Counted from the stretch's first letter, positions 13,943 to 35,139 are shown. The stretch is DNA of 64,000 bases from an uncultured Caulobacterales bacterium (GCA_903858685.1 CAIOJR010000217.1:2707-66706), one strand, 5' to 3'. The notes: a model not told the origin generated them from the letters alone. Numbers and translations: made by a program.

Positions 13943-14024
13943 CGTTAGCTCCTTCAGGCGCGGCTCGGGCCGCCAAACAGAAACGGCCCGCCCGGATCAG
14001 GTCGGCGATAAGGCGGGCCCTTGG

Positions 14025-14058
14025 GGGCGGACGCTGAGGGAAGCCTCAGCGCCCGCCC
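14025..14058 (-). terminator. GC-rich hairpin downstream of the TonB receptor gene
   Basis: The sequence gggcggacgctgagg-gaag-cctcagcgcccgccc forms a 15-bp stem with one mismatch, 25 nt past the stop at 14083. There is no T-tract. Confidence 0.45.
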
Positions 14059-14082
14059 GGTCTTGAAGTTCCTCAGACAGGT

Positions 14083-16332: not shown

Positions 16333-16395
16333 TGGAAGTCCCCCGATAATCAACAATCGAGGGCTTGCCTAACCAAGGGGCATGACAAGGTCATG

Positions 16396-16411
16396 ACGTT
16401 TGTACGAACGT
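16396..16411. promoter_or_regulatory. Candidate TetR operator, copy 1 (ACGTTTGTACGAACGT)
   Basis: 14 of 16 positions are self-complementary around a central GTAC. The site lies 64-79 nt upstream of the receptor start at 16332. Confidence 0.4.
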
Positions 16412-16448
16412 TTTCCAAGACAAAATGGGAAAATATCGATCACTCCGG

Positions 16449-16465
16449 ACGATTGTACGAAACGT
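16449..16465. promoter_or_regulatory. Candidate TetR operator, copy 2 (ACGATTGTACGAAACGT)
   Basis: It shares the 9-mer TTGTACGAA and the ACG/CGT flanks with copy 1. Centres are about 53 nt apart, in the same intergenic region. Confidence 0.35.
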
Positions 16466-16489
16466 CACCTCCCCCCGCCGCCGACAGAC

Positions 16490-17740: not shown

Positions 17741-17853
17741 CGACCGGTCACTAAGCAAGACCGGGCATTCGCACAAGAGAGGGTCCGACACGGCACGAAC
17801 CTTTGGCGAAACCCGGCCTTCCGAACAGCCGCAAACACCCCCGGGCGGCCCCT

Positions 17854-19353: not shown

Positions 19354-19414
19354 TTCACCTCAACCCTATAGGCGGACCGCATCAGGGGGAAGGATGCGGC
19401 CCGCCCGATCAGGA

Positions 19415-22144: not shown

Positions 22145-22284
22145 CAGCGGATCCCCACAAGCAAGCGCGACGTTCGCGCCTTCCTGATGGTTAAGACGGG
22201 CGGGGCCACCCGATCCTTATGAAATATTTATGAATACTATCCGCGTACGTTTAAACATAATCCGAACACGAATTATATGGTTTC

Positions 22285-23265
22285 TCACCCGCCAATGATG
22301 ATCAGACTATTTGACGTACTTATCTGGGCATTCAGACTGTAATGGATGGCCCTCGAAAATCCGTCCGGATCGTCCACCCGGAATATCCCATACAACTTTC
22401 TCGAATTCAGCTCCGGTTGAGCCACATAGATCTGCCGGGCATTGTATCGGTTGAACTCCTCGACCGCCTCAGCAAGCGTCTCTCCCGCCAGATCGATCCG
22501 CCCAGATCGCCAGGCCAGTCGCCGGTCCAGTTCAGACGGCGCGGTGTCCAGTTGCTTGATCGGCGAGGTCTCCGCCACCATCGCCTTCTGGCCGGCAGAC
22601 AGGCGGATCCGGTTTGCCTCACGCCCCACAAGCCACGCCTCGACCACGCCTTCCGTCACCAATATTTCGACGCCCAGATCACGCTGGCGCACAGAAAAAG
22701 CGGTGCCGACCGCGCGCACGCGTACAGACCCGACCTCGACGATAAAGGGACGCGCAGGGTCCCTCTGGACCTGAAACCACGCCTCGCCGCTGGACATCTT
22801 CAACCGGCGCTCATGCGGGCGCATCGCCACCCTGACACGGCTCTGGGTGTTGAGCAGCATGGTCGAGCCGTCGGGCAGGGGCACATGCCGCACCTCCCCC
22901 CGCGCCGTCGAAATCGCGCCGCCCTCATTGGCCTGCCAGACCAGACCCGCCGCGCACGCCGCGATCAGAGCGCCGCCGCCGCCAATCCAGGCCCGGCGCG
23001 CTGGCCGGCGCAATTCCCGTTCCGGGCCCGGCGAAACCCGTCCTGTGACATCGTTAATCTCAGGCTGCGCGTCGATCCGACTGGCGCGGTCGAGCGATTG
23101 CCAGATGGCCTGCGCGCGCAGAAACGCGCCCTGACGACGGGTGTCGACAGCCAGCCATTGCTCAAGTTCCGCCTGCAGGTCAGACGTTAGGTCAAGGCGA
23201 TCCAGCCGCGCGACCCAGGCGAACGCAGCATCATCAATCTCTTCTGCGGTCTCGCCTCTTCTCAT
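22285..23265 (-). CDS. FecR-family anti-sigma factor
   Basis: 326 aa with an N-terminal anti-sigma segment (AAFAWVARLD), a single TM segment (AWIGGGGALIAACAAGLVW) and a periplasmic FecR domain. It sits directly downstream of the ECF sigma gene. Confidence 0.85.
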   Translation of the reverse strand: MRRGETAEEIDDAAFAWVARLDRLDLTSDLQAELEQWLAVDTRRQGAFLRAQAIWQSLDRASRIDAQPEINDVTGRVSPGPERELRRPARRAWIGGGGALIAACAAGLVWQANEGGAISTARGEVRHVPLPDGSTMLLNTQSRVRVAMRPHERRLKMSSGEAWFQVQRDPARPFIVEVGSVRVRAVGTAFSVRQRDLGVEILVTEGVVEAWLVGREANRIRLSAGQKAMVAETSPIKQLDTAPSELDRRLAWRSGRIDLAGETLAEAVEEFNRYNARQIYVAQPELNSRKLYGIFRVDDPDGFSRAIHYSLNAQISTSNSLIIIGG

Positions 23266-23854
23266 CGTCTTTCTTCACGGCTAACGCCAAATTACGATCC
23301 GGCCCCTCACGCAGAGCCCTGGATATGATCCTCATCCCCTTGGCCACGTCATTTTCGACGATGGTTTCCGTCACTCCAAGCTTTGCGGCGATCTCCTTCT
23401 GAGACAAGCCCTCGATCTTGCGCAACTGAAAGACGCTTCGGCACCGGTCTGGCAATTGCGAGATCAGCAACATCACCTCGGCAAGCTCCCGGCGGGCGGC
23501 GACGATCCGCTCGGACGAAGGCTCGTCTGTTATGACGGGCAGCGCCTCAATTTCCGTAACAGTTTCTATCCGAACCACTCTCGCCTGACGCATTTTATCG
23601 ACGATAAGGCTGCGGATGATCTGGAAGAAATAGGCCTGTGGCTGTGTGATGTGATCCAGCGAAGCCATTGCGGCGAAGCGGCAATAGGCCTCCTGCACCA
23701 GATCATCTATCTGATCATGTGGCAAACGCGAGCGCGCCAGCCATCTGCGCACGCCTGGCTCGTGCGGCATGATGCGGCTGGCCACCCACGCCACTCGCCT
23801 CGCGCGATCTGCGTCCACCTGTCCCGCGCCCTCGCCCGACCCCAAATCGACCAT
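23234..23854 (-). CDS. ECF (FecI-type) RNA polymerase sigma factor
   Basis: 206 aa with region 2 (DDLVQEAYCRF) and region 4 HTH (LSQKEIAAKLGVTETIVENDVAKG). It overlaps the fecR-like start by 32 nt. A shorter start at 23770 is possible. Confidence 0.85.
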   Translation of the reverse strand: MVDLGSGEGAGQVDADRARRVAWVASRIMPHEPGVRRWLARSRLPHDQIDDLVQEAYCRFAAMASLDHITQPQAYFFQIIRSLIVDKMRQARVVRIETVTEIEALPVITDEPSSERIVAARRELAEVMLLISQLPDRCRSVFQLRKIEGLSQKEIAAKLGVTETIVENDVAKGMRIISRALREGPDRNLALAVKKDDEKRRDRRRD

Positions 23855-24223
23855 TGGCCGATCTTCCTATAGGTCGAGGCGACAGCGAACTAGCGCGGGG
23901 CTGTCATAATCGAATGAACAGGATTGTCCGGACGAACATCGTGGCGCTGGACAGGGTGTCGTTAGGCGTTGGCGGGGAGAACGCGCCGAAGCCCGGGGGG
24001 CCTTCCTTGGCGATGAGAGTCTAATTGGGGGCGCCAGGGCAAATGTGCAGGGATGCGCTCGCCGCCCACCGAAGACGCTTTTCAACTGAATGGTTAAATT
24101 TCATGAAACTGTTGCGTCCCTGACATTTGCCTGAAGCTGGACAAAGATCTCTTGGTCCTGGGCAAGCCCTGCCTCGGTGGGAAACCAGTAGAGCGAGGGC
24201 TCAATCGGGATTTGGGGGCTTTG

Positions 24224-27200
24224 ATGTCTAGATATCTCATGGCGAATTCTGCCGCATTAGGCGTTATCGCGGTCGCACTCTGTGCGCCTGCAGCCTTTGC
24301 GCAACAGACAACTGCATCGTTGCGCGGGGTTGCTGTCGACGAGGCTGGAGCCCCCATAGCGGGCGCTACGGTAACGGTCATCCACACGCCGTCCGGCACC
24401 AAGTCCAGCCTGGTCACCGACGCCGCCGGTGTCTTCGACGCGCGCGGGCTTCGGGTCGGGGGGCCTTACAAGGTTATTGGCAAGGCCGCGAAGTTCGCAG
24501 ACCAGACCCTGACGGATATCTATCTGACTGTGGGCGATGCTGGCCGTGTCACCTTGAATTTCTCGGCTGCAACTGAAGTCTCGGCCGTCGTGGTCACGGG
24601 CAAGAAAAAGTCCTTCGCCGACCTTGCCAATGTGGGATCGCGCACCACGCTGAAAAGCGCTGATATTGAAGAAGTCGTGACGGTGAAACGCGACATTCGC
24701 GACGTCGCACGACGTGATCCACTGGCCCAGCTCGATTTCGTGGCGCGTGGCACCGGTCCGTCTGGCGGTCTCTATATCGCTGGTTCATCCCCGCGCCGCA
24801 ACCGGATCACCATTGACGGCGTCCGTTCTCAGGACGACTTTGGCCTCAATACCGGCGGCCTTTCCACGAACCGCGGCCCGGTCTCTCTGGAAGCTGTCGA
24901 GCAAATCGCTGTGCAGGCGACGCCCTTCGACGTGGAGGACGGCGATTTTACCGGCGGCGCCCTGAACATGATTCTGAAGTCGGGGGGCAACGATTTTCAC
25001 GGGTCGGTCTTTGACCTCTATCGCACCCCTCGCCTGATCGGCAATCGGGTTCCCCAGTTCTCAACCGTCACCAATGCCGACGGTACGATCAGCCTGCAAC
25101 AGTCCACAGCGACGGTGAAGAATTACGTCCACGACCAGAACTATGGCGCATTTCTTTCGGGTCCCATCATACGCGACCGACTATTCTTCGCCGTGTCATA
25201 CGAAAAATATTCAAGCTACGATGTCACGGCAGCCGGCCCGGCGGGCCAGGGGTACGGAACCCTCTTCAATCCGCTGGGCCTGTCCACGGGACCGAACGCC
25301 ACGGCCGCCGACATCAATTCGGTATTGTCCAACTGGACCAAATATGCCGCCTCAAGCAAGCTGTCACCCGGACAGGATGACCTCGTAAAGCCGGTCCTGG
25401 ACGAGAAATCGTCGGTAAAAATCGACTACAACATCACCGACACACAGCGCCTGACCGCCAGCTACCGGCATGCCTATTCATCCGTCTGGAAGCGCAGCCC
25501 CTCCGCCACAGGCATCAGCCTTGACTCCAACTGGTATGCCCAGCCGGAAAACGAAGACAACTACGCTCTGCAGTTAAACTCCAAGTGGTCTCCCGACCTG
25601 ACCACCGAAGCCCGCGTCTCCTATCGTGGCTACCAGCGGGGACAGAACCCGCCGGAGGGGCAAGGCTTCGCCAATTTCAGCATATGCACCGACAATCTGA
25701 GCACGGGCAGCCTCACCTCGTGCAGCAGCGGGCGCCCTTCGATATCCTTTGGTCCTGACCAGTTCCGGCAGGCGAATATCCTCAAGACGACGGACCTGGC
25801 GGGATCCTTTACCGCCGACTACCGGTTCCTGGACACTCACCAACTGAAGCTCGGCTATCAGTTCAAAGGCATCCACATCTACGATCTGTTTGTTCAGAAC
25901 GCCCAAGGGTCCTACTATTTCGACAGTGTCGCCGATTTCGCTGCGGGTCTGGCGAACTCATATTCTTACGGCAACGCGCTAACAGGCACACCGTCGGACG
26001 CCGCCGAACGGTTTTCCTACAATGTGCAGACGCTGTTCGCGCAGGATACCTGGGACATCTCGCCGGAGCTGACCGTCAATTACGGTCTGCGCTATGATTT
26101 CTATGCGGAAGACACCAAACCGACACTCAACACGAATTTCGTCAATCGCTACGGATATAGCAACCAAACAACCTATGACGGCATCGACATCCTCATGCCG
26201 CGCCTTTCCGCCAAATGGCGCACCTACTGGTTTGAGTTGTCAGGCGGCATCGGCCTCGTGTCGGGCGGTATTCCGGACGTGTTCATCGGCAACAGCTACG
26301 GGGCTCAGACCGGCGCGTTGAACAACAGCTTTACCGTCATCCGCACTGGCCTCAACGCCTATAAGAACTCGTCAACGGGCACGGTGCTTGATCCGACGAC
26401 TGGCGCAGCATTGTTGAACCTGAATCTGGCGGACCCGACCTTCGTGTCGACCCCATCGGCGACGGCTCAGTCTCTCGTCTCCGCGCCCAGCGCGACCCAG
26501 AGGCTCGCCTTCACCAACTCGATCGCACCCGGCTTTGACATGCCCGCAGACTGGAAAGCGAACCTTTCCTTCAAGACCAGCAAGTGGAACTGGGACTTCG
26601 GCATCGATGCGGTGGCCACAATGTCTGACACCAACATCGCGTTCCGCGATATTCGCGCCAGACTCCTGACGGTCAACGGCGTCCAGCAATATACGCCCGA
26701 CGGTCGGATCCGGTACGATGGTCTTCAGATCGCCGGCGCGGCGCCAGCAACCGTCACAGCCAACCGCGCACTTCTGGGTCTTCCGACCTCGACAAATCCT
26801 GATCTGGCCAATATCGGCTCAAACGGCGACATCCAGGCCTATAATCCCAGCGAACAGAACTGGAATTCCACCGTCGCCCTCTCCGCGGGCACAAGATGGC
26901 GCGGTCTCGACTTTTTCGCCGCCTATGTCTTCCAGAATGGAACAAGCTATGGCGGGATTTCGGAATTCGGCACCACCGAGGGCGGAAACAGTTCAAGCGG
27001 AAACTATTACGCCGATCAGGTCTCAAAAAATGACCCCAACACATCGGTCAAGGGACTTTCTGGGAACGTCATCAAACAGGCGCTCAAGATTGAGCTCAGC
27101 TACAAGCATGAATTCATAAAGGGCTTTGAATCTCGCTTCACCCTGTTCGGCGAAAGCCGGGACGGGCGTCGGATCAACTTCCTCATGACCGACCCGTCGC

Positions 27201-27769
27201 TATCGAGCGGGCGCGGCCAAGTGTTTGGCGTGTATCGTGACGACCAGCTTCTCTACGTCCCGAACCTGGGCTCGCCCGATCCTACGAACCCGCTGAAGTT
27301 CACCAGTGCAAATGGAACCACTGTGTATTTCGCCAACACAACGGCGCTTCAGCAATTCCGATCGCTGGTCAATCAGTTCAACCTGCCGCAAGGCCAGATC
27401 ACGCCCAAAGGGTTTGGCCAGAACCCGCACATCAACCGGATTGATTTTCAATATGCCCAGGACATTCCGGGCCCGCTGCCTGGCCACAAGCTGCAATTCA
27501 CTGTGGATGTGACCAATCTGGGCAATCTCATCAACAAGCACTGGGGCGTGGTGAAGGAGTTTTCCAATAGTCGTGCAGGAACGTCGCTGGTCAATGTCTC
27601 CTGCGCCGACGTGGCGGGGGTCGCGCCGACTGCGGCCAATCCGGCCGTCTGCTCAAGCTATGTGTACAGCTACTCCACCGTGAGCGCTGCGACTGCGGCA
27701 AAACCCACAATCGTCGACACGACGGGCAGCCTCTGGTCCGTCGAACTTGGCTTGAAATACAAGTTCTAG
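24224..27769 (+). CDS. TonB-dependent receptor with an N-terminal carboxypeptidase-regulatory-like domain
   Basis: From ORF 24152..27769. The start is set at ATG 24224 (MSRYLMANSAALGVIAVALCAPAAFAQ). The segment SLRGVAVDEAGAPIAGATVTVIHTPSGT matches a CarboxypepD_reg fold. The protein ends in LGLKYKF. Confidence 0.9.
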   Translation: MSRYLMANSAALGVIAVALCAPAAFAQQTTASLRGVAVDEAGAPIAGATVTVIHTPSGTKSSLVTDAAGVFDARGLRVGGPYKVIGKAAKFADQTLTDIYLTVGDAGRVTLNFSAATEVSAVVVTGKKKSFADLANVGSRTTLKSADIEEVVTVKRDIRDVARRDPLAQLDFVARGTGPSGGLYIAGSSPRRNRITIDGVRSQDDFGLNTGGLSTNRGPVSLEAVEQIAVQATPFDVEDGDFTGGALNMILKSGGNDFHGSVFDLYRTPRLIGNRVPQFSTVTNADGTISLQQSTATVKNYVHDQNYGAFLSGPIIRDRLFFAVSYEKYSSYDVTAAGPAGQGYGTLFNPLGLSTGPNATAADINSVLSNWTKYAASSKLSPGQDDLVKPVLDEKSSVKIDYNITDTQRLTASYRHAYSSVWKRSPSATGISLDSNWYAQPENEDNYALQLNSKWSPDLTTEARVSYRGYQRGQNPPEGQGFANFSICTDNLSTGSLTSCSSGRPSISFGPDQFRQANILKTTDLAGSFTADYRFLDTHQLKLGYQFKGIHIYDLFVQNAQGSYYFDSVADFAAGLANSYSYGNALTGTPSDAAERFSYNVQTLFAQDTWDISPELTVNYGLRYDFYAEDTKPTLNTNFVNRYGYSNQTTYDGIDILMPRLSAKWRTYWFELSGGIGLVSGGIPDVFIGNSYGAQTGALNNSFTVIRTGLNAYKNSSTGTVLDPTTGAALLNLNLADPTFVSTPSATAQSLVSAPSATQRLAFTNSIAPGFDMPADWKANLSFKTSKWNWDFGIDAVATMSDTNIAFRDIRARLLTVNGVQQYTPDGRIRYDGLQIAGAAPATVTANRALLGLPTSTNPDLANIGSNGDIQAYNPSEQNWNSTVALSAGTRWRGLDFFAAYVFQNGTSYGGISEFGTTEGGNSSSGNYYADQVSKNDPNTSVKGLSGNVIKQALKIELSYKHEFIKGFESRFTLFGESRDGRRINFLMTDPSLSSGRGQVFGVYRDDQLLYVPNLGSPDPTNPLKFTSANGTTVYFANTTALQQFRSLVNQFNLPQGQITPKGFGQNPHINRIDFQYAQDIPGPLPGHKLQFTVDVTNLGNLINKHWGVVKEFSNSRAGTSLVNVSCADVAGVAPTAANPAVCSSYVYSYSTVSAATAAKPTIVDTTGSLWSVELGLKYKF

Positions 27770-27868: not shown

Positions 27869-28384
27869 CTAGCTGCGCCGAAGTTGCCTTTGGTCCCGGA
27901 TGGAGTCAGTCGCGGCATTCATTTCGTCGGTGAGTTTATCAACCCGACGCGTTAGCCCCTGCAAGGCGGACACCTTGATCATCAGGGTCTTTCTGGACAC
28001 ATTTTTTGTGTAATTCGTGTAGTCCACCGCCACGAGAACAAGCTCGCCATCCTGTTCCCGCAAAACGCCGGTCGCGACTGTCGTGCGTTTGTTCAACAAT
28101 TTCTCAGCTTTTTCGACCCGCTTCAGCACCTGCTTCATGAATGGCATGGCGGACGTCTTCGCAACGCTCTTGATCAGTTGCATCTTGCGCGGAAGATCAA
28201 TGGAATGGATCACCGTTTCATGATCGCCGTCGTCCATGTTCAGCACCACGGCGGCGAGCGAGGAGATGGCCAGATCAAGGTCCGCGCAATTGACGATGAA
28301 CATCCCCACGGACCTGAAGGTGTCGTCCAGGCCCATTTCGCTCGTCGTCGGTTCGTCTGGTAAGCTTGGCAAGGTCTTCCTCAT
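27869..28384 (-). CDS. Hypothetical protein (orphan)
   Basis: 171-aa ORF with natural-looking composition (KMQLIKSVAKTSAMPFMKQVLKRVEKAEKLLNKRT). I recognise no motif. It is somewhat AT-richer than the flanks. Confidence 0.45.
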   Translation of the reverse strand: MRKTLPSLPDEPTTSEMGLDDTFRSVGMFIVNCADLDLAISSLAAVVLNMDDGDHETVIHSIDLPRKMQLIKSVAKTSAMPFMKQVLKRVEKAEKLLNKRTTVATGVLREQDGELVLVAVDYTNYTKNVSRKTLMIKVSALQGLTRRVDKLTDEMNAATDSIRDQRQLRRS

Positions 28385-28527: not shown

Positions 28528-29451
28528 TCATCTCATCTGGACCAGTCTGACCATGGCGGCGACGGTCATCATTTCCGCCATCTCCGGCAGGTGAACGAGA
28601 TATAGCCCGGCATGTCGTCTCACATCGGTGATCGGAATGCAGGCCAGACGGTCATCGCGGCCCGCCTCTGCGGAAAACACGACGCCCGCGCCCAGTCCAG
28701 CCGCCACGGCTTCGCGGACCCCTTCCCTTCCCTCGACCACCAGACGGTAGGTGGGACAGAGCCCTTGATCTTCGCAAGCCCGCTCGAACAGGGCGCGCGT
28801 CATGGATCCAGCTTCCCGCCCGATCAGCGGCAATTCAACGATGTCCCTGAGGTTCACCTGAGGGCGCGCCGCCAGCTTGTGACCCGCATCCGCCCACAAG
28901 GTCAGGGTCAGCGGCTCGATCAGGTAGGATGAAAGCTGAGCCGGCGGCGATGTCAGACCAACAATGGCGAGATCGACCCGCCCCTGCTCCACCTCATTCA
29001 ACAGCTTTCGCGTGTTGCCGCTGACCGTTTCAAAGCTGATTGCGGGATAGAGGCGGCTGAACTCGCCAAGCAGGCGCATGGCGCAGCGGGGCGCGCTGAA
29101 CCCCACTGACAGTCGACCTTTACCCAGATCGCGAAAGGCGTCGAGTTCCTGAAAAAGATCATCAAACCGGCTCAAGATCACTTTCAGGCGACCATGGAAC
29201 ACCTGTCCGACGTCCGTGAGCCTGAGGTTAGGCTTGCGATGAAGCAGCCTGGCCTCGCAAACCGCTTCCAGATTGGCGATCTGGAATGAGATTGTCGGCT
29301 GGGACACGCCCAATGCAAGAGCGGCCTTCGAAAAACTGCCATGCTCGACCACTGCGCAGAAGATGCGCAAGGCCTGCAGGCTCAGACTGGCCGATTTCGG
29401 CCTGTCAGACGATTCCGCAGGAAGTTCGACCGCAAGAAGCCTGTCATTCAA
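28528..29451 (-). CDS. LysR-family transcriptional regulator
   Basis: 307 aa with an N-terminal wHTH (LQALRIFCAVVEHGSFSKAALALGVSQPTISFQIANLE). It is divergent from the operon that starts at about 29547. Confidence 0.9.
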   Translation of the reverse strand: MNDRLLAVELPAESSDRPKSASLSLQALRIFCAVVEHGSFSKAALALGVSQPTISFQIANLEAVCEARLLHRKPNLRLTDVGQVFHGRLKVILSRFDDLFQELDAFRDLGKGRLSVGFSAPRCAMRLLGEFSRLYPAISFETVSGNTRKLLNEVEQGRVDLAIVGLTSPPAQLSSYLIEPLTLTLWADAGHKLAARPQVNLRDIVELPLIGREAGSMTRALFERACEDQGLCPTYRLVVEGREGVREAVAAGLGAGVVFSAEAGRDDRLACIPITDVRRHAGLYLVHLPEMAEMMTVAAMVRLVQMR

Positions 29452-29489
29452 AATTCATCACCCAAGGTTTGACCGGATCACGGATTTCA

Positions 29490-29504
29490 ATTTAATTTTT
29501 AAAT
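29490..29504. promoter_or_regulatory. Perfect palindrome ATTTAATTTTTAAAT (T-N11-A type LysR-box candidate)
   Basis: Arms are 6-3-6. It sits in the AT-rich divergent region between the LysR gene and the HD-oxygenase operon. Confidence 0.4.
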
Positions 29505-29546
29505 GACCTTATGATTTCTGATTTAAATTATAATTCGGAGTTGGCC

Positions 29547-30089
29547 GTGCGCGAAGTCGAAAAATGGAGCCCGATCGAGACCCTGGACCAACTGCTCTCC
29601 GATATGGAGGCCATGGCGAACGCACCTGGCGAGGAGCCGGGCCTGTCCGAACTCGATCACGGTCTGCAATGCGCCGAAGAACTTCGTCAAATGGCGCCCA
29701 ATGACATCGATCTGCAGCTCGCCGGGCTGTTGCACGACATCGCCCATAGTCGTTGTCCCATATCCCATCATGCACAGGTCGGCGCTGACGCGGTGCGACC
29801 ACTTCTGGGCGAACGAATTGCGCACCTGATCGGCCTGCATGCCGACGCCAAACGCTATCTGGTGACAACCACACCCGAATATCTGCTTCGCCTTTCCCCG
29901 ATCAGCCGCAAATCGTTTGAATTGCAGGGCGGGCTGATGTCACAAGCCGAGGTCGCCCGCTTCGCTGCCGATCCAGAAGCCGCCAACGCCCTATGGCTCA
30001 GAAGCGCCGACGACGCCGCCAAGGCGCCCGGCCGCATCGTCCCTGGCATGGACGCCTGGCTTGCCCCGCTTCGCGCCGCCGCCCAGTGA
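29547..30089 (+). CDS. HD-domain diiron oxygenase, PhnZ-like (phosphonate-degradation-associated HD protein)
   Basis: From ORF 29511..30089. I prefer GTG 29547, which has GGAG 6 nt upstream; the first 12 codons of the longer form are very AT-rich. The ligand pattern is LDHGLQ, LLHDIAH, SHHAQ, GLHAD and SADDA, that is H..HD..H..H..D as I recall for PhnZ, TmpB and MIOX. Confidence 0.65.
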   Translation: MREVEKWSPIETLDQLLSDMEAMANAPGEEPGLSELDHGLQCAEELRQMAPNDIDLQLAGLLHDIAHSRCPISHHAQVGADAVRPLLGERIAHLIGLHADAKRYLVTTTPEYLLRLSPISRKSFELQGGLMSQAEVARFAADPEAANALWLRSADDAAKAPGRIVPGMDAWLAPLRAAAQ

Positions 30090-31411
30090 GACGCCTCATT
30101 ACGCGTAAATTGCAGAGCCGTGGAAACCTGACCGTTGCAATATGGGCGTTGAGCTTCGCCTTCACCTCCTATTTCTGCATGTACGCCTTTCGCAAGCCGT
30201 TCACGGCCGGAACCTATCACGATGTGGCGGGCTGGACATCGGGGATGGACTTCAAGTCTGCCGCCGTGATCAGTCAGGTGCTGGGCTATGCGGTATCCAA
30301 ATATCTGGGCGTGAAATTCGTCTCGGAAGCCAAAGAAAAGGGGCGGACGAGCCTCATTCTGGGACTGATCCTGTTTGCTGAGGCGGCGCTCGTCCTGTTC
30401 GCGGTCGCGCCTGCGCCGGTCAAGCTTGTCGCCATATTCCTCAACGGCCTGCCGCTGGGCATGATTTTCGGGCTCGTCTTCCGCTACCTCGAAGGGCGAC
30501 GCACCAGCGAGTTTCTTGGCGCAGGCCTTTGCACCAGCTTCATCGTGTCGTCGGGCTTTGTGAAGTCGATTGGACGATCGCTGATGGATCAATTTGGCGT
30601 CACGGAATTCTGGATGCCCGCCGCCACCGGACTGGTGTTCCTGCCGGTCATCGCTCTGGCCGTCTGGCTGTTGTCGATGACGCCGGCGCCCGATGATCTG
30701 GATATCGTTGAGAGAGCAGTCCGACAGCCCATGGACGCGCAGGCTCGCGCCCACTTCTTCAGACAATACGCCCCGGGCCTGGCGCTTCTGGGACTGTCGT
30801 TCATAGCCCTGGGCGCGCTTCGGGACTTTCGGGACAATTTTGCCGCAGACATCTGGAAGGCGCTTGGATACGGCAACGCGCCAGAACTCTTCACCCTGGC
30901 GGAGCTCCCAGCTGCGGCGCTGGTGCTTGTGTCGCTCAGCCTCATGATCCTGGTGCATGATAATCGCCGGGCCGTTTGGAGGATCCACCTTCTGATGGCG
31001 AGCGGCGTCCTTCTGGCGCTTGGCGCCACGATCGGCTTTCAACTGCACATTCTGAGCCCTGTCGCCTGGATGGTCATCATGGGCGCCGGTGTTTATCTGG
31101 GCTATGTGCCCTGCACCTCGATCCTGGCCGACCGCCTGATCGCAGCTTTGAAATCAGGCGGCAATTCCGGCTTCATGATGTATGTCCTGGACGCTTTCGC
31201 CTATGGGGGCAGCGTGGGCGTGTTGCTGGTGCGCTCCCTGGCGACGGCGGATCTGTCCTGGCTGCACTTCTTCATAGGCTTTGCCTATGTGGCGCTCGCC
31301 ATCGCCCTTTTGGCCACCCTGGCTTCGATGATCTATTTCGACAAAAGCGCCAGGCTGGACGCGACAGCCTCTTCAGCCCTGATACAGATGGACGAGGTCG
31401 TGGATGCTTAA
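30086..31411 (+). CDS. Multi-pass membrane protein, probable transporter (resembles the DUF5690 family from memory)
   Basis: In frame with ORF 29993..31411. The GTG at 30086 overlaps the upstream stop as GTGA. About 12 hydrophobic segments are visible, and the N-terminal motif is YFCMYAFRKPFTAG. Confidence 0.6.
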   Translation: MRRLITRKLQSRGNLTVAIWALSFAFTSYFCMYAFRKPFTAGTYHDVAGWTSGMDFKSAAVISQVLGYAVSKYLGVKFVSEAKEKGRTSLILGLILFAEAALVLFAVAPAPVKLVAIFLNGLPLGMIFGLVFRYLEGRRTSEFLGAGLCTSFIVSSGFVKSIGRSLMDQFGVTEFWMPAATGLVFLPVIALAVWLLSMTPAPDDLDIVERAVRQPMDAQARAHFFRQYAPGLALLGLSFIALGALRDFRDNFAADIWKALGYGNAPELFTLAELPAAALVLVSLSLMILVHDNRRAVWRIHLLMASGVLLALGATIGFQLHILSPVAWMVIMGAGVYLGYVPCTSILADRLIAALKSGGNSGFMMYVLDAFAYGGSVGVLLVRSLATADLSWLHFFIGFAYVALAIALLATLASMIYFDKSARLDATASSALIQMDEVVDA

Positions 31412-32732
31412 GCGCGCTTGCCTTATCCTGAGCACCCTGTTCAGCATCGGATCAATTGCAAACGCTGACCCGATCCTGTTGATCTCCGTGGACGGAATGC
31501 GTCCGGCGGACGTGCTTCAATCCGAAGCGCTAGGCGTCAGCCTGCCCTTTCTGCAATCGGTCATGCGAGACGGCGCCTATGCTTCCGATGTTGTCAATGT
31601 CGCGCCGAGCATCACCTTGCCCAATCATGCGACCCTGCTGACCGGCGCAACGCCGGCTCACCACGGAATCGTCGACAACCTCTATTTCGATCCGCTCAAA
31701 TCGCGCCCGGGTCGCTACTATTTCTTCGCCTCTGACATCAAGCTTCCCACCCTTTGGGACGCGGCGCACCAGTGCGGCGCCAAGGTCGCCAGCCTGAACT
31801 GGCCCGCCAGTGTCGGCGCCCCCTCGATTGATGATAATATTCCCGAATATTTTCGTGACCGTGACGCCGACGACCTCAAAATGGTCAAGGCCCTGTCAAC
31901 GCCTGGACTGATGGCGCGCCTTGAGAAAAGAACCGGCGCTTCCGCCGCCCTGGTCACCACCGAATCCGCCCCAGGCGACGCCGCCCTCAGCCAATATGCA
32001 GCGGCGCTCTTCACACTGGACCACCCGCGCTTCATGACGCTGCATTTTGCGAGCCTTGACCTTGCGGAGCACCTGTCTGGCCCGGACTCGCCCGCGTCAC
32101 GGGTCGCCCTGGAAGGCATAGACAGGGATATCGCACGGGTCGTCGCCGCGGGGCGCGCCGTCTGGCCCGATTTGAAAGTCATTGTCGTGTCCGACCACGG
32201 CTTCGCGCCGCTTCGTCACGAGATCAACCTCTATCGTCGCTTCGCAGAGGCCGGCCTCCTGACCTATGACCCCAGCGGCCAGCATCTGACATCATGGGAG
32301 GCGGTTCCGACCGGTGCGGCCTCTGCTTTTGTCCGCCTCGCCCGACCGGATGACACAGCTTTGCAACATCGGGTGATCGAGCTGCTCAGTGCCCTCAAGG
32401 CTGATCCGGCGTATCGCATCCATCGCGTGCTGGACCGGTCGGCCATGGACCGTCTGGGGGTCGATCCGGCTGCGTCCTTCCTGATCGACTTTGATGAGGG
32501 CAGCGAACTGGCTCAGCGTGTTGATGGCCCAATAGACGCACCGAGCGCCCTGAAGGGCACGCATGGATGGCTTCCAGACGACGCAAACATGCATTCCAGC
32601 CTGTTTATTGTTGGTCCCGGCGTCCCGAAGGGAACACGTCTTGGTCAGGTGAACATGCTGGACATCGCCCCGACGATCGCCAAATGGATTGGCTGTCCGC
32701 TGTCCGGCGCTGAGGGAAAGCCGCTTTTTTGA
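31404..32732 (+). CDS. Secreted nucleotide pyrophosphatase/phosphodiesterase (NPP, alkaline-phosphatase superfamily)
   Basis: 442 aa with signal peptide MLKRACLILSTLFSIGSIANA. NPP motifs are ISVDGMRPAD, PSITLPNHATLLTG (Thr nucleophile context), VVSDHGF and GTHGW. The ATG overlaps the upstream gene by 8 nt. Confidence 0.8.
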   Translation: MLKRACLILSTLFSIGSIANADPILLISVDGMRPADVLQSEALGVSLPFLQSVMRDGAYASDVVNVAPSITLPNHATLLTGATPAHHGIVDNLYFDPLKSRPGRYYFFASDIKLPTLWDAAHQCGAKVASLNWPASVGAPSIDDNIPEYFRDRDADDLKMVKALSTPGLMARLEKRTGASAALVTTESAPGDAALSQYAAALFTLDHPRFMTLHFASLDLAEHLSGPDSPASRVALEGIDRDIARVVAAGRAVWPDLKVIVVSDHGFAPLRHEINLYRRFAEAGLLTYDPSGQHLTSWEAVPTGAASAFVRLARPDDTALQHRVIELLSALKADPAYRIHRVLDRSAMDRLGVDPAASFLIDFDEGSELAQRVDGPIDAPSALKGTHGWLPDDANMHSSLFIVGPGVPKGTRLGQVNMLDIAPTIAKWIGCPLSGAEGKPLF

Positions 32733-34123
32733 CCGGGACGCCAACAATGTCAGGCAGGACAGCCGACAGGCGCCCCGATCTGGTCGCGCGGATCGAGGGC
32801 GGCGCGCGCAACTGGCCCTTTGGATCGCCAGCTGAGGACCTGGAAGCGCGGGGCTATGTCCTCGAAGAATTTACGGTAGCAGGCCGCGCACGTCGTTACG
32901 TGGCGGGTGAAGACCATCCCGCTGATACGATGCGCATTGACGACGCAGTCTACCGAACGCGCATCTATGTGCTAACGCCAAGGCGGCCGGATGACTTCAA
33001 TGGCGTTTTGATCGTCAACTGGCAAAACGTGTCACGCCACCTGGACGTCGGCAGTCCGGACGGCGACGAGGTCTACAGGGGCTATGCCTGGGTTGGCGTT
33101 ACGGTGCAAAAGCTTGGCATAGATGGCGCGCCAGGGACCAGCCCGTCTCTGGCGACATGGGATTCGCATCGCTATGAAAGCCTGCATCATCCGGGCGACG
33201 CCTATGCCTATGACATATTCGGCCAGGTGGCGCGGATGCTCCGGAGCGAACCCGATCGCCAGGCGCCGGATCCACTGCGCGGCCTGAAGCCGCAATGCAT
33301 CGTGGCGTGCGGACGGTCGCAGTCGGCCATGCGACTGGCGTCCTATATCAATTTCGCTCATCAGCACGACCGGATCTTCGACGGATTTTTGCTGCTGGTT
33401 CACTTCGGCCTGTGCCCGCCTCTATCGGAGAGGCCCTTCCTCGATATTTTCACGTCGGATCAGGCCGGGCGACTGCCATTCCAGACACCCTTGCGCGAAC
33501 CCGAAGGGGCCAAGGTCCTGGCCCTGTCCACCGAGTGCGAAGCCGTGTACAATTTTGGCGCTCGCCAGCCCGATAGCGACGCCTACCGCTTCTGGGAAAT
33601 CGCCGGCGCCTCGCACTCCAATCCGCACCGCGATCGCAGCCTCAGCCTCATTTTTCAAAGGGACGGGATCTCCAGCCAAAACAGCGACACCGACCGTGAC
33701 GCGAACCTTGTGGAATATCAGTTCGTCAAGGACGCCGCGCTGCGATGGCTGAAACGATGGATGATGACCGGCGAAGCGCCGCCTCGCCTTCCCCCGATCG
33801 ACATGTATCCAGGCCCCAACGGACAACCCGCCATCCGGCGAGACGCGCTTGGCAATGCGCTGGGCGGGGTGAGATTGCCTGATCTTGACGCCGCGACAGG
33901 CCAGCACCTGGGGCGGAGCGCGGGCGAACTGCTTGAATCACTGTCCGGGTGGAGCTCACTTTACTCAAGGCGAAAACTTCAGGAGACGCATGGCGCCTGG
34001 ACAGCCTTTCAGCGCAAGTGGAACACCTGTGTAGACCAGTTGCTGCAACAAGACCTCATTCTGCCGCGCGAAGCCGAAACCTTGCGAGACGACGCGCTCA
34101 GGCGATGGAATTCCGCTTCCTGA
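32729..34123 (+). CDS. Uncharacterised protein, possibly alpha/beta-hydrolase-domain family
   Basis: 464-aa ORF. The TTG at 32729 overlaps the NPP stop; ATG 32747 is the alternative. CGRSQSAMRL looks like a nucleophile-elbow segment. I have no firm family assignment. Confidence 0.5.
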   Translation: MTGTPTMSGRTADRRPDLVARIEGGARNWPFGSPAEDLEARGYVLEEFTVAGRARRYVAGEDHPADTMRIDDAVYRTRIYVLTPRRPDDFNGVLIVNWQNVSRHLDVGSPDGDEVYRGYAWVGVTVQKLGIDGAPGTSPSLATWDSHRYESLHHPGDAYAYDIFGQVARMLRSEPDRQAPDPLRGLKPQCIVACGRSQSAMRLASYINFAHQHDRIFDGFLLLVHFGLCPPLSERPFLDIFTSDQAGRLPFQTPLREPEGAKVLALSTECEAVYNFGARQPDSDAYRFWEIAGASHSNPHRDRSLSLIFQRDGISSQNSDTDRDANLVEYQFVKDAALRWLKRWMMTGEAPPRLPPIDMYPGPNGQPAIRRDALGNALGGVRLPDLDAATGQHLGRSAGELLESLSGWSSLYSRRKLQETHGAWTAFQRKWNTCVDQLLQQDLILPREAETLRDDALRRWNSAS

Positions 34124-34200: not shown

Positions 34201-35139
34201 TCAGTAGATCGACGGAACAAACAGCTCTTCCGGCGTGGGGTGGCGCACATAGTCCGGATTATGCACGCGCGCCGGAAGCATCACAAAAGGTCGCTCTATT
34301 TCCTCGTACGGAAACTGGCCGAGAAGGTGATGAATGCAGTTCAGGCGCGCGCGCTTCTTGTCCACCGCCTCGACAACCCACCACCGCGCTTCTGGAATAT
34401 GCGTGCGGTTGAGCATCTCTTCCTTGGCCTGAGTATAGAGTTCCCAACGACGTCGGGACTCCAGGTCCATCGGGCTCAACTTCCATTGCTTGATAGGATC
34501 GGTGTTTCGCATATGGAAGCGAAGGTGTTGCTCGTCATCTGTGATTGAAAACCAGTATTTTATGATCCTGATCCCGGACTTGACCAACATGCGTTCGAAT
34601 TCCGGGACGGTTTCGAAAAACTCCTGAACTTCGTCATCGGTGCAAAAGCCCATTACCCGCTCTACGCCGGCCCGATTATACCAACTGCGATCGAACAGGA
34701 CGATTTCCCCCGCCCCGGGGAGGTGGGGCACATAGCGCTGGAAATACCACTGGGTCCGCTCTTTCTCGGAGGGCGCAGTCAGGGCGACGACGCGGCAGAC
34801 GCGCGGATTGAGCCTTTGAGTGATGCGCTTTATGACGCCGCCCTTGCCGGCAGCGTCCCGGCCCTCAAAAATCACGACAACCTTGAGCTTCTCCTGCACG
34901 ACCCAGTCCTGCAGCTTGACCAGCTCCGCTTGAAGTCGAAAGAGTTCCTTCAGATAGACCCGACGATTAAACACCCCGCCCGGGCCGGTATCGTCGGACA
35001 GGAAGTCTAATGCCCTGCTGAATGAATCGTCGCCATCATCATTCAGTTCAAGTTCAAGAACCTCGTCAAAATCATCAACACGCTCTGCGGTGATCCGGTC
35101 TCGAGAAATCTGGCTGTCGGGCTCGTTGGTCATTTCCAC
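34201..35139 (-). CDS. ppk2: Polyphosphate kinase 2
   Basis: 312 aa with a Walker A context (VVIFEGRDAAGKGG). The signatures RYVPHLPGAGEIVLFDRSWYNR and KQWKLSPMD are typical of PPK2. Confidence 0.9.
   Translation of the reverse strand: MEMTNEPDSQISRDRITAERVDDFDEVLELELNDDGDDSFSRALDFLSDDTGPGGVFNRRVYLKELFRLQAELVKLQDWVVQEKLKVVVIFEGRDAAGKGGVIKRITQRLNPRVCRVVALTAPSEKERTQWYFQRYVPHLPGAGEIVLFDRSWYNRAGVERVMGFCTDDEVQEFFETVPEFERMLVKSGIRIIKYWFSITDDEQHLRFHMRNTDPIKQWKLSPMDLESRRRWELYTQAKEEMLNRTHIPEARWWVVEAVDKKRARLNCIHHLLGQFPYEEIERPFVMLPARVHNPDYVRHPTPEELFVPSIY

What the first reader, a model, noticed from the sequence alone, without database searches (positions are those of the whole stretch)
28528..34123. 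PhnZ-like HD oxygenase operon without a partner hydroxylase, coupled to an NPP phosphodiesterase
Seen in the sequence: a divergent LysR gene plus four overlapping genes. The overlaps are GTGA at 30086-30089, 8 nt at 31404-31411 and TTGA at 32729-32732. The genes encode an HD protein with the H..HD..H..H..D ligand set, a 12-TM protein, a secreted NPP with a Thr-nucleophile context, and an uncharacterised hydrolase-like protein.

Established knowledge: PhnZ and TmpB cleave C-P bonds only after a PhnY/TmpA-type Fe/2OG dioxygenase installs a 1-hydroxyl. No such gene is in this operon.

Inference: the substrate may already carry the hydroxyl, for example 1-hydroxy-2-aminoethylphosphonate released from phosphonolipid or phosphonoglycan conjugates by the NPP and the hydrolase. 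Alternatively the HD enzyme acts on a different substrate. PPK2 lies immediately downstream (34201-35139).
Basis: partly seen in the sequence, partly recalled or inferred. Interest (0 to 1): 0.6.

Follow-up and report, generated by a model that had tools for sequence, protein, structure and literature searches.

The report
Phosphonate-ester scavenging operon, PhnZ-like oxygenase
A LysR-controlled accessory operon joins a new subfamily of the carbon-phosphorus-cleaving PhnZ/TmpB iron oxygenases to a secreted phosphodiesterase, an unstudied membrane permease (DUF5690) and an unstudied serine hydrolase. It most likely feeds on esterified phosphonates without the usual partner hydroxylase.

Summary

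**What the HD protein is**
- It is a PhnZ/TmpB-type diiron oxygenase by sequence profile (E 3e-41 to PhnZ) and by predicted fold (TM 0.84).
- It scores below every curated equivalog cut-off.
- It lacks the YxxE substrate loop of PhnZ and TmpB.
- It belongs to a distinct subfamily of about 180 residues.

**What surrounds the subfamily elsewhere**
- In 80 genome loci the subfamily sits beside alkaline-phosphatase-superfamily esterases. 38 loci have a PehA-like phosphonate monoester hydrolase, and others have an NPP.
- A third gene is either a methylphosphonate-hydroxylase-like PhyH (Actinomycetota) or a cytoplasmic acyl-esterase (GDSL or Abhydrolase_10, Alphaproteobacteria). No locus has both.
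- DUF5690 recurs next to PhnX, PbfD-like and PhnZ-like genes, so it is a candidate phosphonate importer.

**The hydroxylase question**
- This genome has no methylphosphonate-hydroxylase-like gene, no PEP mutase and no PehA homologue.

**Best reading and limits**
- The operon scavenges exogenous phosphonate esters and cleaves a substrate that already carries the 1-hydroxyl.
- The substrate is untested.
- PhnZ without PhnY* is already published, and this scan has noted DUF5690-linked phosphonate islands on other DNA.
- I class it as a new variant of a known kind.

The parts
28528..29451 (-). LysR-family regulator, divergent from the operon. It is the likely substrate-sensing activator.
   Evidence: HTH_1 plus LysR_substrate domains. 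The best NCBIfam hit is TIGR03339, the aminoethylphosphonate-catabolism-associated LysR, at 186.7 bits (cut-off 341). A LysR at 34-46% identity accompanies the HD gene in many related loci.
29452..29546 (.). AT-rich divergent control region. It holds the palindrome ATTTAATTTTTAAAT (29490-29504) and a TTTGAC-N5-TCACG element.
   Evidence: Read. The TTTGACnnGnTCACG and CATTTAATTT elements recur in the equivalent LysR-HD spacer of L103, whose HD is 68% identical. Function is inferred, not tested.
29547..30089 (+). PhnZ/TmpB-type HD-domain mixed-valent diiron oxygenase of a distinct subfamily. The ORF opens at 29511; the likely start is GTG 29547.
   Evidence: - NCBIfam scores, all below cut-off: TIGR03276 119 bits (cut-off 214.6), GmPhnZ1 model 91 bits, TmpB model 74 bits.
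- Solved structures by sequence: PhnZ E 4e-18 for the single sequence and 3e-41 for the profile; TmpB 8e-36.
- AlphaFold2 model: pLDDT 95. TM 0.84 to PhnZ and 0.78 to TmpB; the next HD proteins reach at most 0.53.
- Ligands H50, H75, D76, H87, H110, D167.
- K114, S132, Q139 and R164 (192-aa numbering) are invariant in the subfamily.
- There is no YxxE loop. The equivalent residues read G-E-E-P (PMC8177086).
30086..31411 (+). DUF5690 polytopic inner-membrane protein, a candidate phosphonate importer.
   Evidence: - PF18943 at 488 bits.
- 49% identical to a second copy in this genome that lies between phnX and another PhnZ-like gene.
- In relatives it sits next to PbfD-like FAD oxidoreductase, PhnX, HD and TonB-receptor genes.
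- No solved relative by sequence.
31404..32732 (+). [quoted passage not shown]
   Evidence: - PF01663 at 153 bits.
- Best solved relative is Xanthomonas NPP 2gsn, E 5e-18, and the catalytic residues are kept.
- Signal peptide MLKRACLILSTLFSIGSIANA.
- Secreted NPP homologues at 39-43% identity accompany HD-DUF5690 in L023, L027, L106 and L107.
32729..34123 (+). Abhydrolase_10 serine hydrolase, cytoplasmic, substrate unknown.
   Evidence: - PF20091 at 348 bits.
- Invariant G-x-S197-x-S elbow, D218 and H296 in 37 homologues.
- AlphaFold2 model pLDDT 92, with only generic alpha/beta-hydrolase matches in the PDB (TM 0.31 or less).
- No signal peptide.
- The closest homologues (56%) lie in LysR-HD-DUF5690-Abh10 operons. 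More distant ones sit in acyl-CoA or TonB contexts.
34201..35139 (-). PPK2 polyphosphate kinase, convergent. It is a neighbour only and is not shown to belong to the system.
   Evidence: TIGR03707 at 370 bits, above cut-off. No PPK2 lay within 9 kb of the HD gene in any of the 80 related loci.

Best explanation
This is a horizontally mobile, LysR-activated operon for scavenging phosphorus from exogenous esterified phosphonates, such as head groups of phosphonolipids or phosphonoglycans, or other phosphonate monoesters.

Proposed route:
1. The secreted NPP hydrolyses the P-O ester bond in the periplasm and frees a phosphonate. This step is inferred.
2. The DUF5690 permease imports the phosphonate. 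This is inferred from gene neighbourhoods.
3. The cytoplasmic Abhydrolase_10 serine hydrolase removes an acyl or ester group from the imported molecule. This is inferred and is the weakest step.
4. The HD-domain diiron oxygenase cleaves the C-P bond of a 1-hydroxyalkylphosphonate oxidatively, giving phosphate plus a carboxylic acid. Fold, ligand set and the residues aligned with PhnZ K108, S126, Q133 and R158 are shown here. That these residues bind the phosphonate in PhnZ is my recollection, not checked against a paper. Activity is inferred.

No hydroxylase is encoded with the operon, and no PhnY*-like one is found in the genome. The substrate is therefore most likely already 1-hydroxylated, or its 1-hydroxyl is unmasked by the esterase. 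The loss of the YxxE loop suggests it is recognised differently from (R)-HAEP in PhnZ.
For: **The HD protein is PhnZ/TmpB-like**
- Sequence and profile matches.
- Fold: TM 0.84 to PhnZ and 0.78 to TmpB, then a gap to 0.53 or less.
- Six ligands plus K114, S132, Q139 and R164 are invariant.

**The regulator fits phosphonate catabolism**
- Its best model is the AEP-catabolism LysR family.

**This genome has a second HD-DUF5690 pair**
- It lies inside a PbfD-like FAD oxidoreductase, PhnX, DUF5690, HD, TonB-receptor cluster.
- Window-type HDs occupy the same kind of cluster in other Caulobacteraceae (L051, L100).

**The subfamily is coupled to phosphoester hydrolases**
- 38 of 80 loci have a cytoplasmic PehA-like enzyme directly upstream. 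It scores NF045661 358-404 bits. Its solved relatives are the phosphonate monoester hydrolases 2w8s (1e-93) and 2vqr (9e-93).
- 14 of those 38 loci, plus 5 more loci, have a PhyH whose best model is methylphosphonate hydroxylase, at 174 bits.
- 12 of the 38 have a GDSL protein instead.
- The DUF5690-linked members carry a secreted NPP plus GDSL or Abh10.
- The tree places the window with the HD-DUF5690-Abh10 locus L103 (support 100/99), nested in the alphaproteobacterial PehA+GDSL clade.

**No hydroxylase is evident**
- No GmPhnY*-like gene here (27.8 bits) or in five related carriers.

**The role is scavenging**
- No PEP mutase in this genome.

**Literature**
- PhnZ without PhnY*, and natural R-HAEP, are documented in PMC8154272.
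- Phosphonate esters are thought to need an AP-like esterase before C-P cleavage (PMC5649143).
Against: - No experiment or expression data could be obtained.
- The HD is below all three curated equivalog cut-offs and lacks the YxxE loop. Its substrate may therefore differ from every characterised one.
- The residue equivalent to PhnZ H62 varies (S, A or F) in some subfamily members.
- NPPs are generally phosphodiesterases or pyrophosphatases. Phosphonate monoester activity of this one is assumed.
- The role of Abhydrolase_10 is unexplained if the NPP has already freed the phosphonate. More distant family members sit in fatty-acid/CoA contexts.
- The genome holds 11 generic PhyH genes and a TmpA-like gene that cannot be excluded as unlinked hydroxylases.
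- The exact four-gene order was found only in this window.
Confidence: 0.55

Rival explanations
1. The pathway is the same, but the imported phosphonate is not hydroxylated (for example 2-AEP or methylphosphonate). An unlinked Fe/2OG enzyme elsewhere in the genome installs the 1-hydroxyl. Candidates are the 11 PhyH-family genes and the TmpA-like gene on contig C254.
For: - Characterised PhnZ, TmpB and GmPhnZ1 all work after a hydroxylase (PMC10574752).
- Actinobacterial orthologues of this HD have an adjacent PhyH.
- The genome has 11 PhyH hits and 4 TauD hits.
Against: - None of these genes is adjacent to the operon.
- The best match to the methylphosphonate-hydroxylase model is 27.8 bits, against 174 bits for the true partners of orthologous HDs.
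- The TmpA-like gene has its own adjacent HD partner.
- Five alphaproteobacterial carriers of this HD type also lack such a hydroxylase.
- In the alphaproteobacterial PehA-HD triads, GDSL takes the downstream slot that PhyH holds in the actinobacterial triads. No locus has both.
Confidence: 0.17
2. The HD oxygenase cleaves a C-C bond, not a C-P bond, in a hydroxylated head-group alcohol such as an inositol- or glycerol-type polyol. The alcohol is released from ordinary phospholipids by the NPP and the esterase, so the operon would be phospholipid head-group catabolism.
For: - Weak Pfam MIOX hit (E 3.6e-4).
- MIOX shows that HD diiron oxygenases can cleave C-C bonds (PMC8177086).
- A secreted PI-PLC gene lies 16 kb upstream.
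- The YxxE loop is absent, as in MIOX.
- Earlier notes of this scan describe TmpB-like sister families that probably act on non-phosphonate substrates.
Against: - The MIOX hit is below the gathering score and covers only residues 19-78.
- Fold match to MIOX is TM 0.53 or less, against 0.84 for PhnZ.
- The residues aligned with PhnZ K108, S126, Q133 and R158 are invariant in the subfamily.
- Subfamily members sit in PhnX/PbfD clusters and next to phosphonate monoester hydrolases and methylphosphonate-hydroxylase-like genes.
Confidence: 0.1
3. The genes are only loosely related phosphate-starvation neighbours. The HD protein would be a metal-dependent phosphohydrolase, and the overlaps would reflect compact gene packing rather than one pathway.
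For: - Public annotations call homologues 'predicted HD phosphohydrolase'.
- The region is rich in other P-related genes: PI-PLC, PPK2 and an MFS of the organophosphate type.
Against: - The fold search puts a large gap between PhnZ/TmpB and all HD hydrolases.
- HD-DUF5690-Abh10 under a divergent LysR is conserved at 56-68% identity on independent metagenomic contigs.
- Three start/stop overlaps indicate translational coupling.
Confidence: 0.05

Closest known systems
PhnY*/PhnZ oxidative 2-AEP pathway (uncultured bacterium HF130_AEPn_1; PDB 4mlm, 4mln, 4n71)
   Same: - Same fold (TM 0.84) at 33-34% identity.
- Same six-residue diiron ligand set.
- The residues aligned with PhnZ K108, S126, Q133 and R158 are conserved, as is the H62 equivalent (H79).
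- The same reaction is expected: oxidative C-P cleavage of a 1-hydroxyphosphonate.
   Different: - No PhnY* partner.
- The YxxE loop is absent (the window has G-E-E-P).
- There is a deletion of about 9 residues after HDxxH.
- It scores 119 bits against the 214.6-bit cut-off of TIGR03276.
- It is coupled to an NPP, DUF5690 and Abhydrolase_10.
PhnZ homologues embedded in phnWX, phnWAY or PbfD-PhnX clusters without PhnY* (Zangelmi et al. 2021, PMC8154272; 2023, PMC10590968)
   Same: - A hydroxylase-less PhnZ-type gene presumed to deal with environmental (R)-HAEP.
- This genome's second copy on contig C154 is exactly such a case.
- Window-type HDs occupy such clusters in other Caulobacteraceae (L051, L100).
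   Different: - The window operon has no PhnW, PhnX or PbfD.
- It has a secreted phosphodiesterase and a serine hydrolase instead.
- Its HD is only 35% identical to the C154 copy, which keeps a Y-x-E motif.
Gimesia maris GmPhnY*/GmPhnZ1 methylphosphonate pathway
   Same: - GmPhnZ1 is the second-best curated model for the HD (91 bits).
- The PhyH partners of actinobacterial orthologues match the GmPhnY* model best (174 bits).
   Different: - All scores are far below the equivalog cut-offs (300 and 500 bits).
- No GmPhnY*-like gene exists in this genome.
Phosphonate monoester hydrolases PehA/PMH (Burkholderia caryophylli 2w8s, Rhizobium leguminosarum 2vqr)
   Same: - They are the direct neighbours of this HD subfamily in 38 of 80 loci.
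- They perform the ester-cleaving step that the NPP is proposed to perform here.
- Both enzyme types belong to the alkaline phosphatase superfamily.
   Different: - The window has an NPP with a Thr nucleophile that is secreted. PMHs have a formylglycine nucleophile and are cytoplasmic.
- This genome has no PehA homologue.
TmpA/TmpB (Leisingera caerulea; PDB 6npa)
   Same: HD diiron oxygenase fold (TM 0.78, profile E 8e-36).
   Different: - No TmpA partner next to it.
- No YxxE loop.
- 74 bits against a 300-bit cut-off.

Membership tests
[quoted passage not shown] | H...HD...H...H...D six-residue diiron ligand set | tested here: met
   H50, H75, D76, H87, H110 and D167 align with PhnZ H34, H58, D59, H80, H104 and D161. 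They are invariant in 34 subfamily members.
[quoted passage not shown] | Fold closest to PhnZ/TmpB rather than to HD phosphohydrolases | tested here: met
   AlphaFold2 model with pLDDT 95. Foldseek ranks 1-10 are all PhnZ or TmpB (TM 0.77-0.84). The best other HD protein reaches TM 0.53 or less with E above 0.2.
PhnZ/TmpB C-P-cleaving oxygenases | Transient YxxE substrate-gating loop (Y24/E27 in PhnZ, Y30/E33 in TmpB; PMC8177086) | tested here: not met
   The profile alignment puts PhnZ Y24 and E27 opposite G40 and P43 of the window protein (192-aa numbering; segment G-E-E-P). No Tyr occurs there in the subfamily, though a Glu two residues earlier than the E27 position is nearly invariant.
PhnZ/TmpB C-P-cleaving oxygenases | Residues aligned with PhnZ K108, S126, Q133 and R158. 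Their phosphonate-binding role is recalled from the PhnZ structure papers and was not checked, because the paper could not be opened. | tested here: met
   K114, S132, Q139 and R164 are conserved in the window protein and invariant in the subfamily. Their role in PhnZ rests on my knowledge, not on a tool result.
PhnZ/TmpB C-P-cleaving oxygenases | Encoded next to an Fe/2OG hydroxylase (PhnY*, TmpA) that makes the 1-hydroxy substrate | tested here: not met
   There is no PhyH or TauD gene in the operon. The nearest PhyH genes lie 20 kb away and are generic. The best GmPhnY* model score in the genome is 27.8 bits.
TIGR03276 (Phn-HD), NF052439 (GmPhnZ1) and NF049941 (TmpB) equivalogs | Score above the curated cut-off | tested here: not met
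   119.2 against 214.6, 91.1 against 300, and 73.7 against 300 bits.
PhnZ/TmpB C-P-cleaving oxygenases | Fe(II)/Fe(III)-dependent release of phosphate from a 1-hydroxyphosphonate | not testable with these tools
   This needs an enzyme assay.
NPP (nucleotide pyrophosphatase/phosphodiesterase, PF01663) | Thr nucleophile, two-metal site ligands and the stabilising Asn | tested here: met
   PF01663 at 153 bits, above the cut-off of 23. T71, D30, D219, H223, D264, H265, H387 and N92 align with the Xanthomonas NPP catalytic residues. The Phe after the nucleophile that stacks the nucleotide base in Xac NPP (my recollection) is Leu here.
PbfD/PhnX or PhnWX hydrolytic AEP pathway | Presence of PhnX (or PhnA) with PhnW or PbfD in the cluster | tested here: not met
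   None is in the window operon. They are present only in the second locus, on contig C154.

The most novel reading that the evidence does not exclude
The HD subfamily and its obligate esterase partners would define an undescribed 'phosphonate-ester' branch of oxidative C-P cleavage.
- An alkaline-phosphatase-superfamily esterase (PehA-like or NPP) frees the phosphonate. This would give the long-orphan phosphonate monoester hydrolases a physiological role.
- In Alphaproteobacteria, a cytoplasmic acyl-esterase (GDSL or Abhydrolase_10) would replace the Fe/2OG hydroxylase by unmasking a pre-existing, acylated 1-hydroxyl.
- DUF5690 would be a new family of phosphonate importers.
Probability: 0.15. 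Interest if true: 0.8.

Novelty: new variant of a known kind. Interest (0 to 1): 0.55.

Why it matters
Phosphonates are a large pool of organic phosphorus, and most of them occur as esters on lipids and glycans. The known C-P-cleaving pathways start from free phosphonates.

If this reading is right, three things follow:
- It names the missing front end of phosphonate use: ester cleavage, import and unmasking.
- It gives testable functions to three uncharacterised families: DUF5690, Abhydrolase_10, and a YxxE-less PhnZ subfamily.
- It suggests a natural role for phosphonate monoester hydrolases.

There is also a practical warning. 'phnZ' counts in metagenome surveys lump together subfamilies that have different partners and probably different substrates.

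Tried and rejected
- **Generic PhyH genes in the window (51952-53624) as hidden PhnY\*.** Rejected. One has no NCBIfam hit and the other scores 28.6 bits on the methylphosphonate hydroxylase model.
- **The upstream 1205-aa TonB receptor (24152-27769) as a conserved part of the system.** Not supported. It gave no hit next to the HD gene in any of the 80 loci, and it is divergent from an ECF sigma/FecR unit.
- **PPK2 as a conserved member.** Not found near any related HD.
- **MIOX-like reading.** Rejected on fold and profile scores.
- **Promoter and terminator scan.** Nothing above shuffled expectation.
- **Fold search for Abhydrolase_10.** Only generic alpha/beta-hydrolase matches, so no functional lead.
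- **DUF5690 against solved structures.** No hit.
- **DUF5690 in an even sample of 200 genomes of the class.** None found, so that search gave no co-occurrence statistics.
- **Literature search for DUF5690.** It found only an unrelated Pandoravirus paper.
- **Literature search linking 'phosphonate monoester hydrolase' with PhnZ.** No paper in the held library.
- **The PhnZ structure paper PMC3986159.** Could not be opened.
- **Neighbours of the 25 loci classed 'none of the seeds' (mostly Actinomycetota).** Not resolved. My crude ORF calls in high-GC DNA were unreliable.

Full report
**1. Observation**

The ORF map matches the finding:
- A LysR gene at 28528-29451 (-).
- Four same-strand genes: HD protein 29511-30089, membrane protein (ORF from 29993; GTG at 30086), NPP 31404-32732, and hydrolase 32729-34123.

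The overlaps are real. GTGA at 30086-30089 was read directly. The 8-nt and TTGA overlaps follow from the ORF ends.

Pfam assigns the following:
- HD (plus a sub-threshold MIOX hit).
- DUF5690, 488 bits.
- Phosphodiest/NPP, 153 bits.
- Abhydrolase_10, 348 bits.
- LysR.
- A convergent PPK2.

The publicly called HD gene is 180 aa (P0001).

Base composition gives no clear sign of foreign DNA (GC 0.57-0.63).

**2. The HD protein**

NCBIfam places it nearest three models, all well below their equivalog cut-offs:

| Model | Score (bits) | Cut-off (bits) |
|---|---|---|
| TIGR03276, phosphonate-degradation HD oxygenase | 119 | 214.6 |
| GmPhnZ1, hydroxymethylphosphonate dioxygenase | 91 | 300 |
| TmpB | 74 | 300 |

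Against solved structures, only PhnZ and TmpB match:
- Single sequence: E 4e-18 and 7e-13.
- Subfamily profile: E 3e-41 and 8e-36.

An AlphaFold2 model (pLDDT 95) superposes on PhnZ with TM 0.83-0.84 and on TmpB with 0.78. Every other HD protein, MIOX included, scores 0.53 or less.

The six diiron ligands (H50, H75, D76, H87, H110, D167) are invariant in 34 relatives. So are the residues aligned with PhnZ K108, S126, Q133 and R158. That those four bind the phosphonate in PhnZ is my recollection and was not checked against a paper.

Two things differ from PhnZ and TmpB:
- The YxxE loop, which gates Fe2 and binds the substrate amine in PhnZ and TmpB (PMC8177086), is absent. PhnZ Y24 and E27 align with Gly and Pro of a G-E-E-P segment.
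- About nine residues are missing after HDxxH.

The protein is therefore a PhnZ/TmpB-type oxygenase of a separate subfamily, probably with different substrate recognition.

**3. The rest of the genome**

The assembly is 3.87 Mb and 100% complete. It holds two more PhnZ-like genes.

- **Contig C154.** An operon of a TIGR03364 FAD oxidoreductase (PbfD-like), PhnX (331 bits), a second DUF5690 (49% identical to the window's), an HD protein (204.7 bits on TIGR03276, keeping a Y-x-E motif) and a TonB receptor. This is a published type of cluster: a hydroxylase-less PhnZ attached to a hydrolytic AEP pathway (PMC8154272, PMC10590968).
- **Contig C254.** A TmpA-like dioxygenase (357 bits) is followed by a very divergent HD protein (35 bits).

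The genome has 11 PhyH and 4 TauD hits, none adjacent to the window operon. Three further searches came back negative:
- The methylphosphonate hydroxylase model scores at most 27.8 bits.
- There is no PEP mutase (23.9 bits), so the organism does not make phosphonates.
- There is no PehA homologue.

**4. Comparative context**

The HD protein has 455 relatives at E 1e-10 or better, mostly unnamed or called 'predicted HD phosphohydrolase'. I fetched 80 genome loci and scored their neighbours by tblastn with seed proteins.

| Context next to the HD gene | Loci (of 80) | Taxa |
|---|---|---|
| Sulfatase-family gene directly upstream | 38 | mixed |
| ...of which with a PhyH gene as well | 14 | 13 Actinomycetota and 1 Burkholderiales MAG |
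| PhyH only | 5 | Actinomycetota |
| ...of the 38, with a GDSL gene instead of PhyH | 12 | Alphaproteobacteria |
| DUF5690 nearby | 7 | Alphaproteobacteria |
| NPP directly adjacent | 4 | Acidimicrobiaceae |
| None of my seed proteins nearby | 25 | mostly Actinomycetota |

- The sulfatase-family protein is cytoplasmic and carries a C-S-P-G-R formylglycine motif.
- Its best models are PehA (358-404 bits) and the solved phosphonate monoester hydrolases 2w8s and 2vqr (E about 1e-93).
- The PhyH partner's best model is the G. maris methylphosphonate hydroxylase (174 bits).
- The GDSL partner resembles the two-domain O-acyltransferase SsfX3 (3skv, E 3e-30).
- No locus has both PhyH and GDSL.

Among the closest relatives of the window HD:
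- At 64-68% identity, metagenomic contigs carry LysR, then divergently HD, DUF5690 and Abhydrolase_10.
- At about 55% identity, the set is a secreted NPP, LysR, GDSL, a TonB receptor, HD and DUF5690. One example is Caulobacter vibrioides OR37.

A maximum-likelihood tree pairs the window with the HD-DUF5690-Abh10 locus (support 100/99). It nests the DUF5690-linked members inside the alphaproteobacterial PehA+GDSL clade. This genome's own C154 copy is a long-branched outgroup.

Within the genus, only one of seven other species has a window-type HD (61% identity), while all have the C154 type. The operon is therefore accessory.

**5. DUF5690**

The family was not found in 200 evenly sampled genomes of the class. 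It is present in 13 of 41 relatives. There it sits next to PbfD-like/PhnX genes, PhnZ-like genes or TonB receptors in most loci. Eleven genomes carry both DUF5690 and a PhnZ-like gene, although related genomes are not independent observations.

This makes DUF5690 a candidate phosphonate importer. No paper in the held library discusses it in this role.

**6. Abhydrolase_10**

- The G-x-S197-x-S elbow, D218 and H296 are invariant in 37 homologues.
- The model is confident (pLDDT 92). It has only generic alpha/beta-hydrolase neighbours in the PDB, such as prolyl oligopeptidase domains, acetyl-xylan esterases and glucuronoyl esterases, with TM 0.31 or less.
- It has no signal peptide.
- Only the nearest clade (56% identity) is linked to HD-DUF5690. 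More distant members sit among acyl-CoA genes or TonB receptors.

**7. Mechanism**

Shown here:
- The HD protein is a PhnZ/TmpB-type enzyme.
- The NPP is catalytically intact and secreted.
- The hydrolase is a serine hydrolase without an export signal.
- The LysR is of the phosphonate type.
- The gene partnership is conserved.

Inferred:
1. The NPP cleaves a phosphonate ester in the periplasm.
2. DUF5690 imports the product.
3. Abhydrolase_10 removes an acyl or ester group in the cytoplasm.
4. The HD oxygenase cleaves the C-P bond of a 1-hydroxyphosphonate.

Two observations bear on the hydroxylase question. GDSL or Abh10 and PhyH are alternative third genes that never co-occur. No suitable hydroxylase is found in this genome or in five related carriers. 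The alphaproteobacterial version therefore probably uses a substrate whose 1-hydroxyl already exists, possibly masked by an acyl group. That last idea is speculative.

Natural 1-hydroxyphosphonates are known. (R)-HAEP occurs in Acanthamoeba glycans and Bdellovibrio sphingophosphonolipids (PMC8154272). The need for an AP-like esterase ahead of C-P cleavage has been postulated for marine phosphonate esters (PMC5649143).

**8. Comparison and novelty**

- A PhnZ without PhnY* is published.
- This scan has already noted phosphonate islands with DUF5690, secreted phosphodiesterases and outer-membrane receptors on other DNA (a Brevundimonas-like genome and a Bacteroidota genome). Those are unchecked AI notes.
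- New here, as far as the held literature shows:
  - the YxxE-less HD subfamily;
  - its systematic pairing with phosphonate monoester hydrolases or NPPs;
  - the PhyH-or-esterase alternation;
  - the Abhydrolase_10 member.

I class it as a new variant of a known kind, with interest 0.55.

**9. Limits**

There is no biochemistry. Neighbour scoring used tblastn with seed proteins rather than full annotation. 25 of the 80 loci have neighbours I did not identify.

Noticed in passing
L016 (G000 contig C154) 5757-12579, minus strand: A second phosphonate cluster in the same genome: PbfD-like FAD oxidoreductase (TIGR03364, 397 bits), PhnX (331 bits), DUF5690 (503 bits), a PhnZ-like HD (204.7 bits, keeps Y-x-E) and a TonB receptor. 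It has no PhnW and no PhnY*. All seven other species of the genus have an HD of this type.
   Followed up: partly
L017 (G000 contig C254) 7961-9675: A TmpA-like dioxygenase (357 bits against a 400-bit cut-off) is followed 18 nt later by a very divergent HD protein (35 bits on TIGR03276, matching only around the HD motif). The pair is flanked by an aldehyde dehydrogenase and a formyl-THF deformylase. Earlier notes of this scan suggest such pairs act on trimethylammonium compounds rather than phosphonates. I did not test this.
   Followed up: no
L021, L038, L043, L046 and other Acidimicrobiia loci (HD at about 10001-10510): A conserved three-gene unit: PehA-like phosphonate monoester hydrolase, window-type HD oxygenase, and a methylphosphonate-hydroxylase-like PhyH. 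It looks like a complete cytoplasmic route from phosphonate ester to phosphate. I found no paper describing it.
   Followed up: partly
L018, L024, L025, L029, L031, L032, L039 and others (Caulobacterales, Sphingomonadales, Parvibaculum): The alphaproteobacterial counterpart unit is LysR, a PehA-like hydrolase, the HD oxygenase, and an SsfX3-like two-domain GDSL protein (3skv, E 3e-30). All are without signal peptides and there is no hydroxylase.
   Followed up: partly
window 12746-23854: An upstream island holds a secreted Ca-dependent PI-PLC (PF16670, 358 bits), two TonB receptors (one with an STN domain), FecR and an ECF sigma factor. The 499-aa ORF at 17854-19353 has no Pfam hit. Together with the operon, PPK2 and an MFS transporter, this makes the 12-37 kb stretch rich in phosphorus-related genes.
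   Followed up: partly
L016 3660-5681; L020 1824-3851 and 8775-10607; L125; L132: A TPR plus Sulfotransfer_3 protein of about 610-675 aa recurs beside TonB-receptor/HD/DUF5690 phosphonate loci in several Alphaproteobacteria. Its role there is unexplained.
   Followed up: no
window 29452-29546 and L103 3465-3574: The LysR-HD spacer shares the elements AAAATTCA, TTTGACnnGnTCACG and CATTTAATTT with a locus whose HD is only 68% identical. This suggests a conserved operator or promoter.
   Followed up: partly
A1 alignment, column of window H79 (192-aa numbering): The His after the HD dyad, equivalent to PhnZ H62 and thought to be catalytic, is replaced by Ser, Ala or Phe in several subfamily members (P0036, P0044, P0053, P0092, P0111). 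All six ligands stay invariant in those members.
   Followed up: no
window 27869-28384 (-): A 171-aa ORF between the TonB receptor and the LysR gene has no Pfam or NCBIfam hit. I did not look for it beside the related operons.
   Followed up: no
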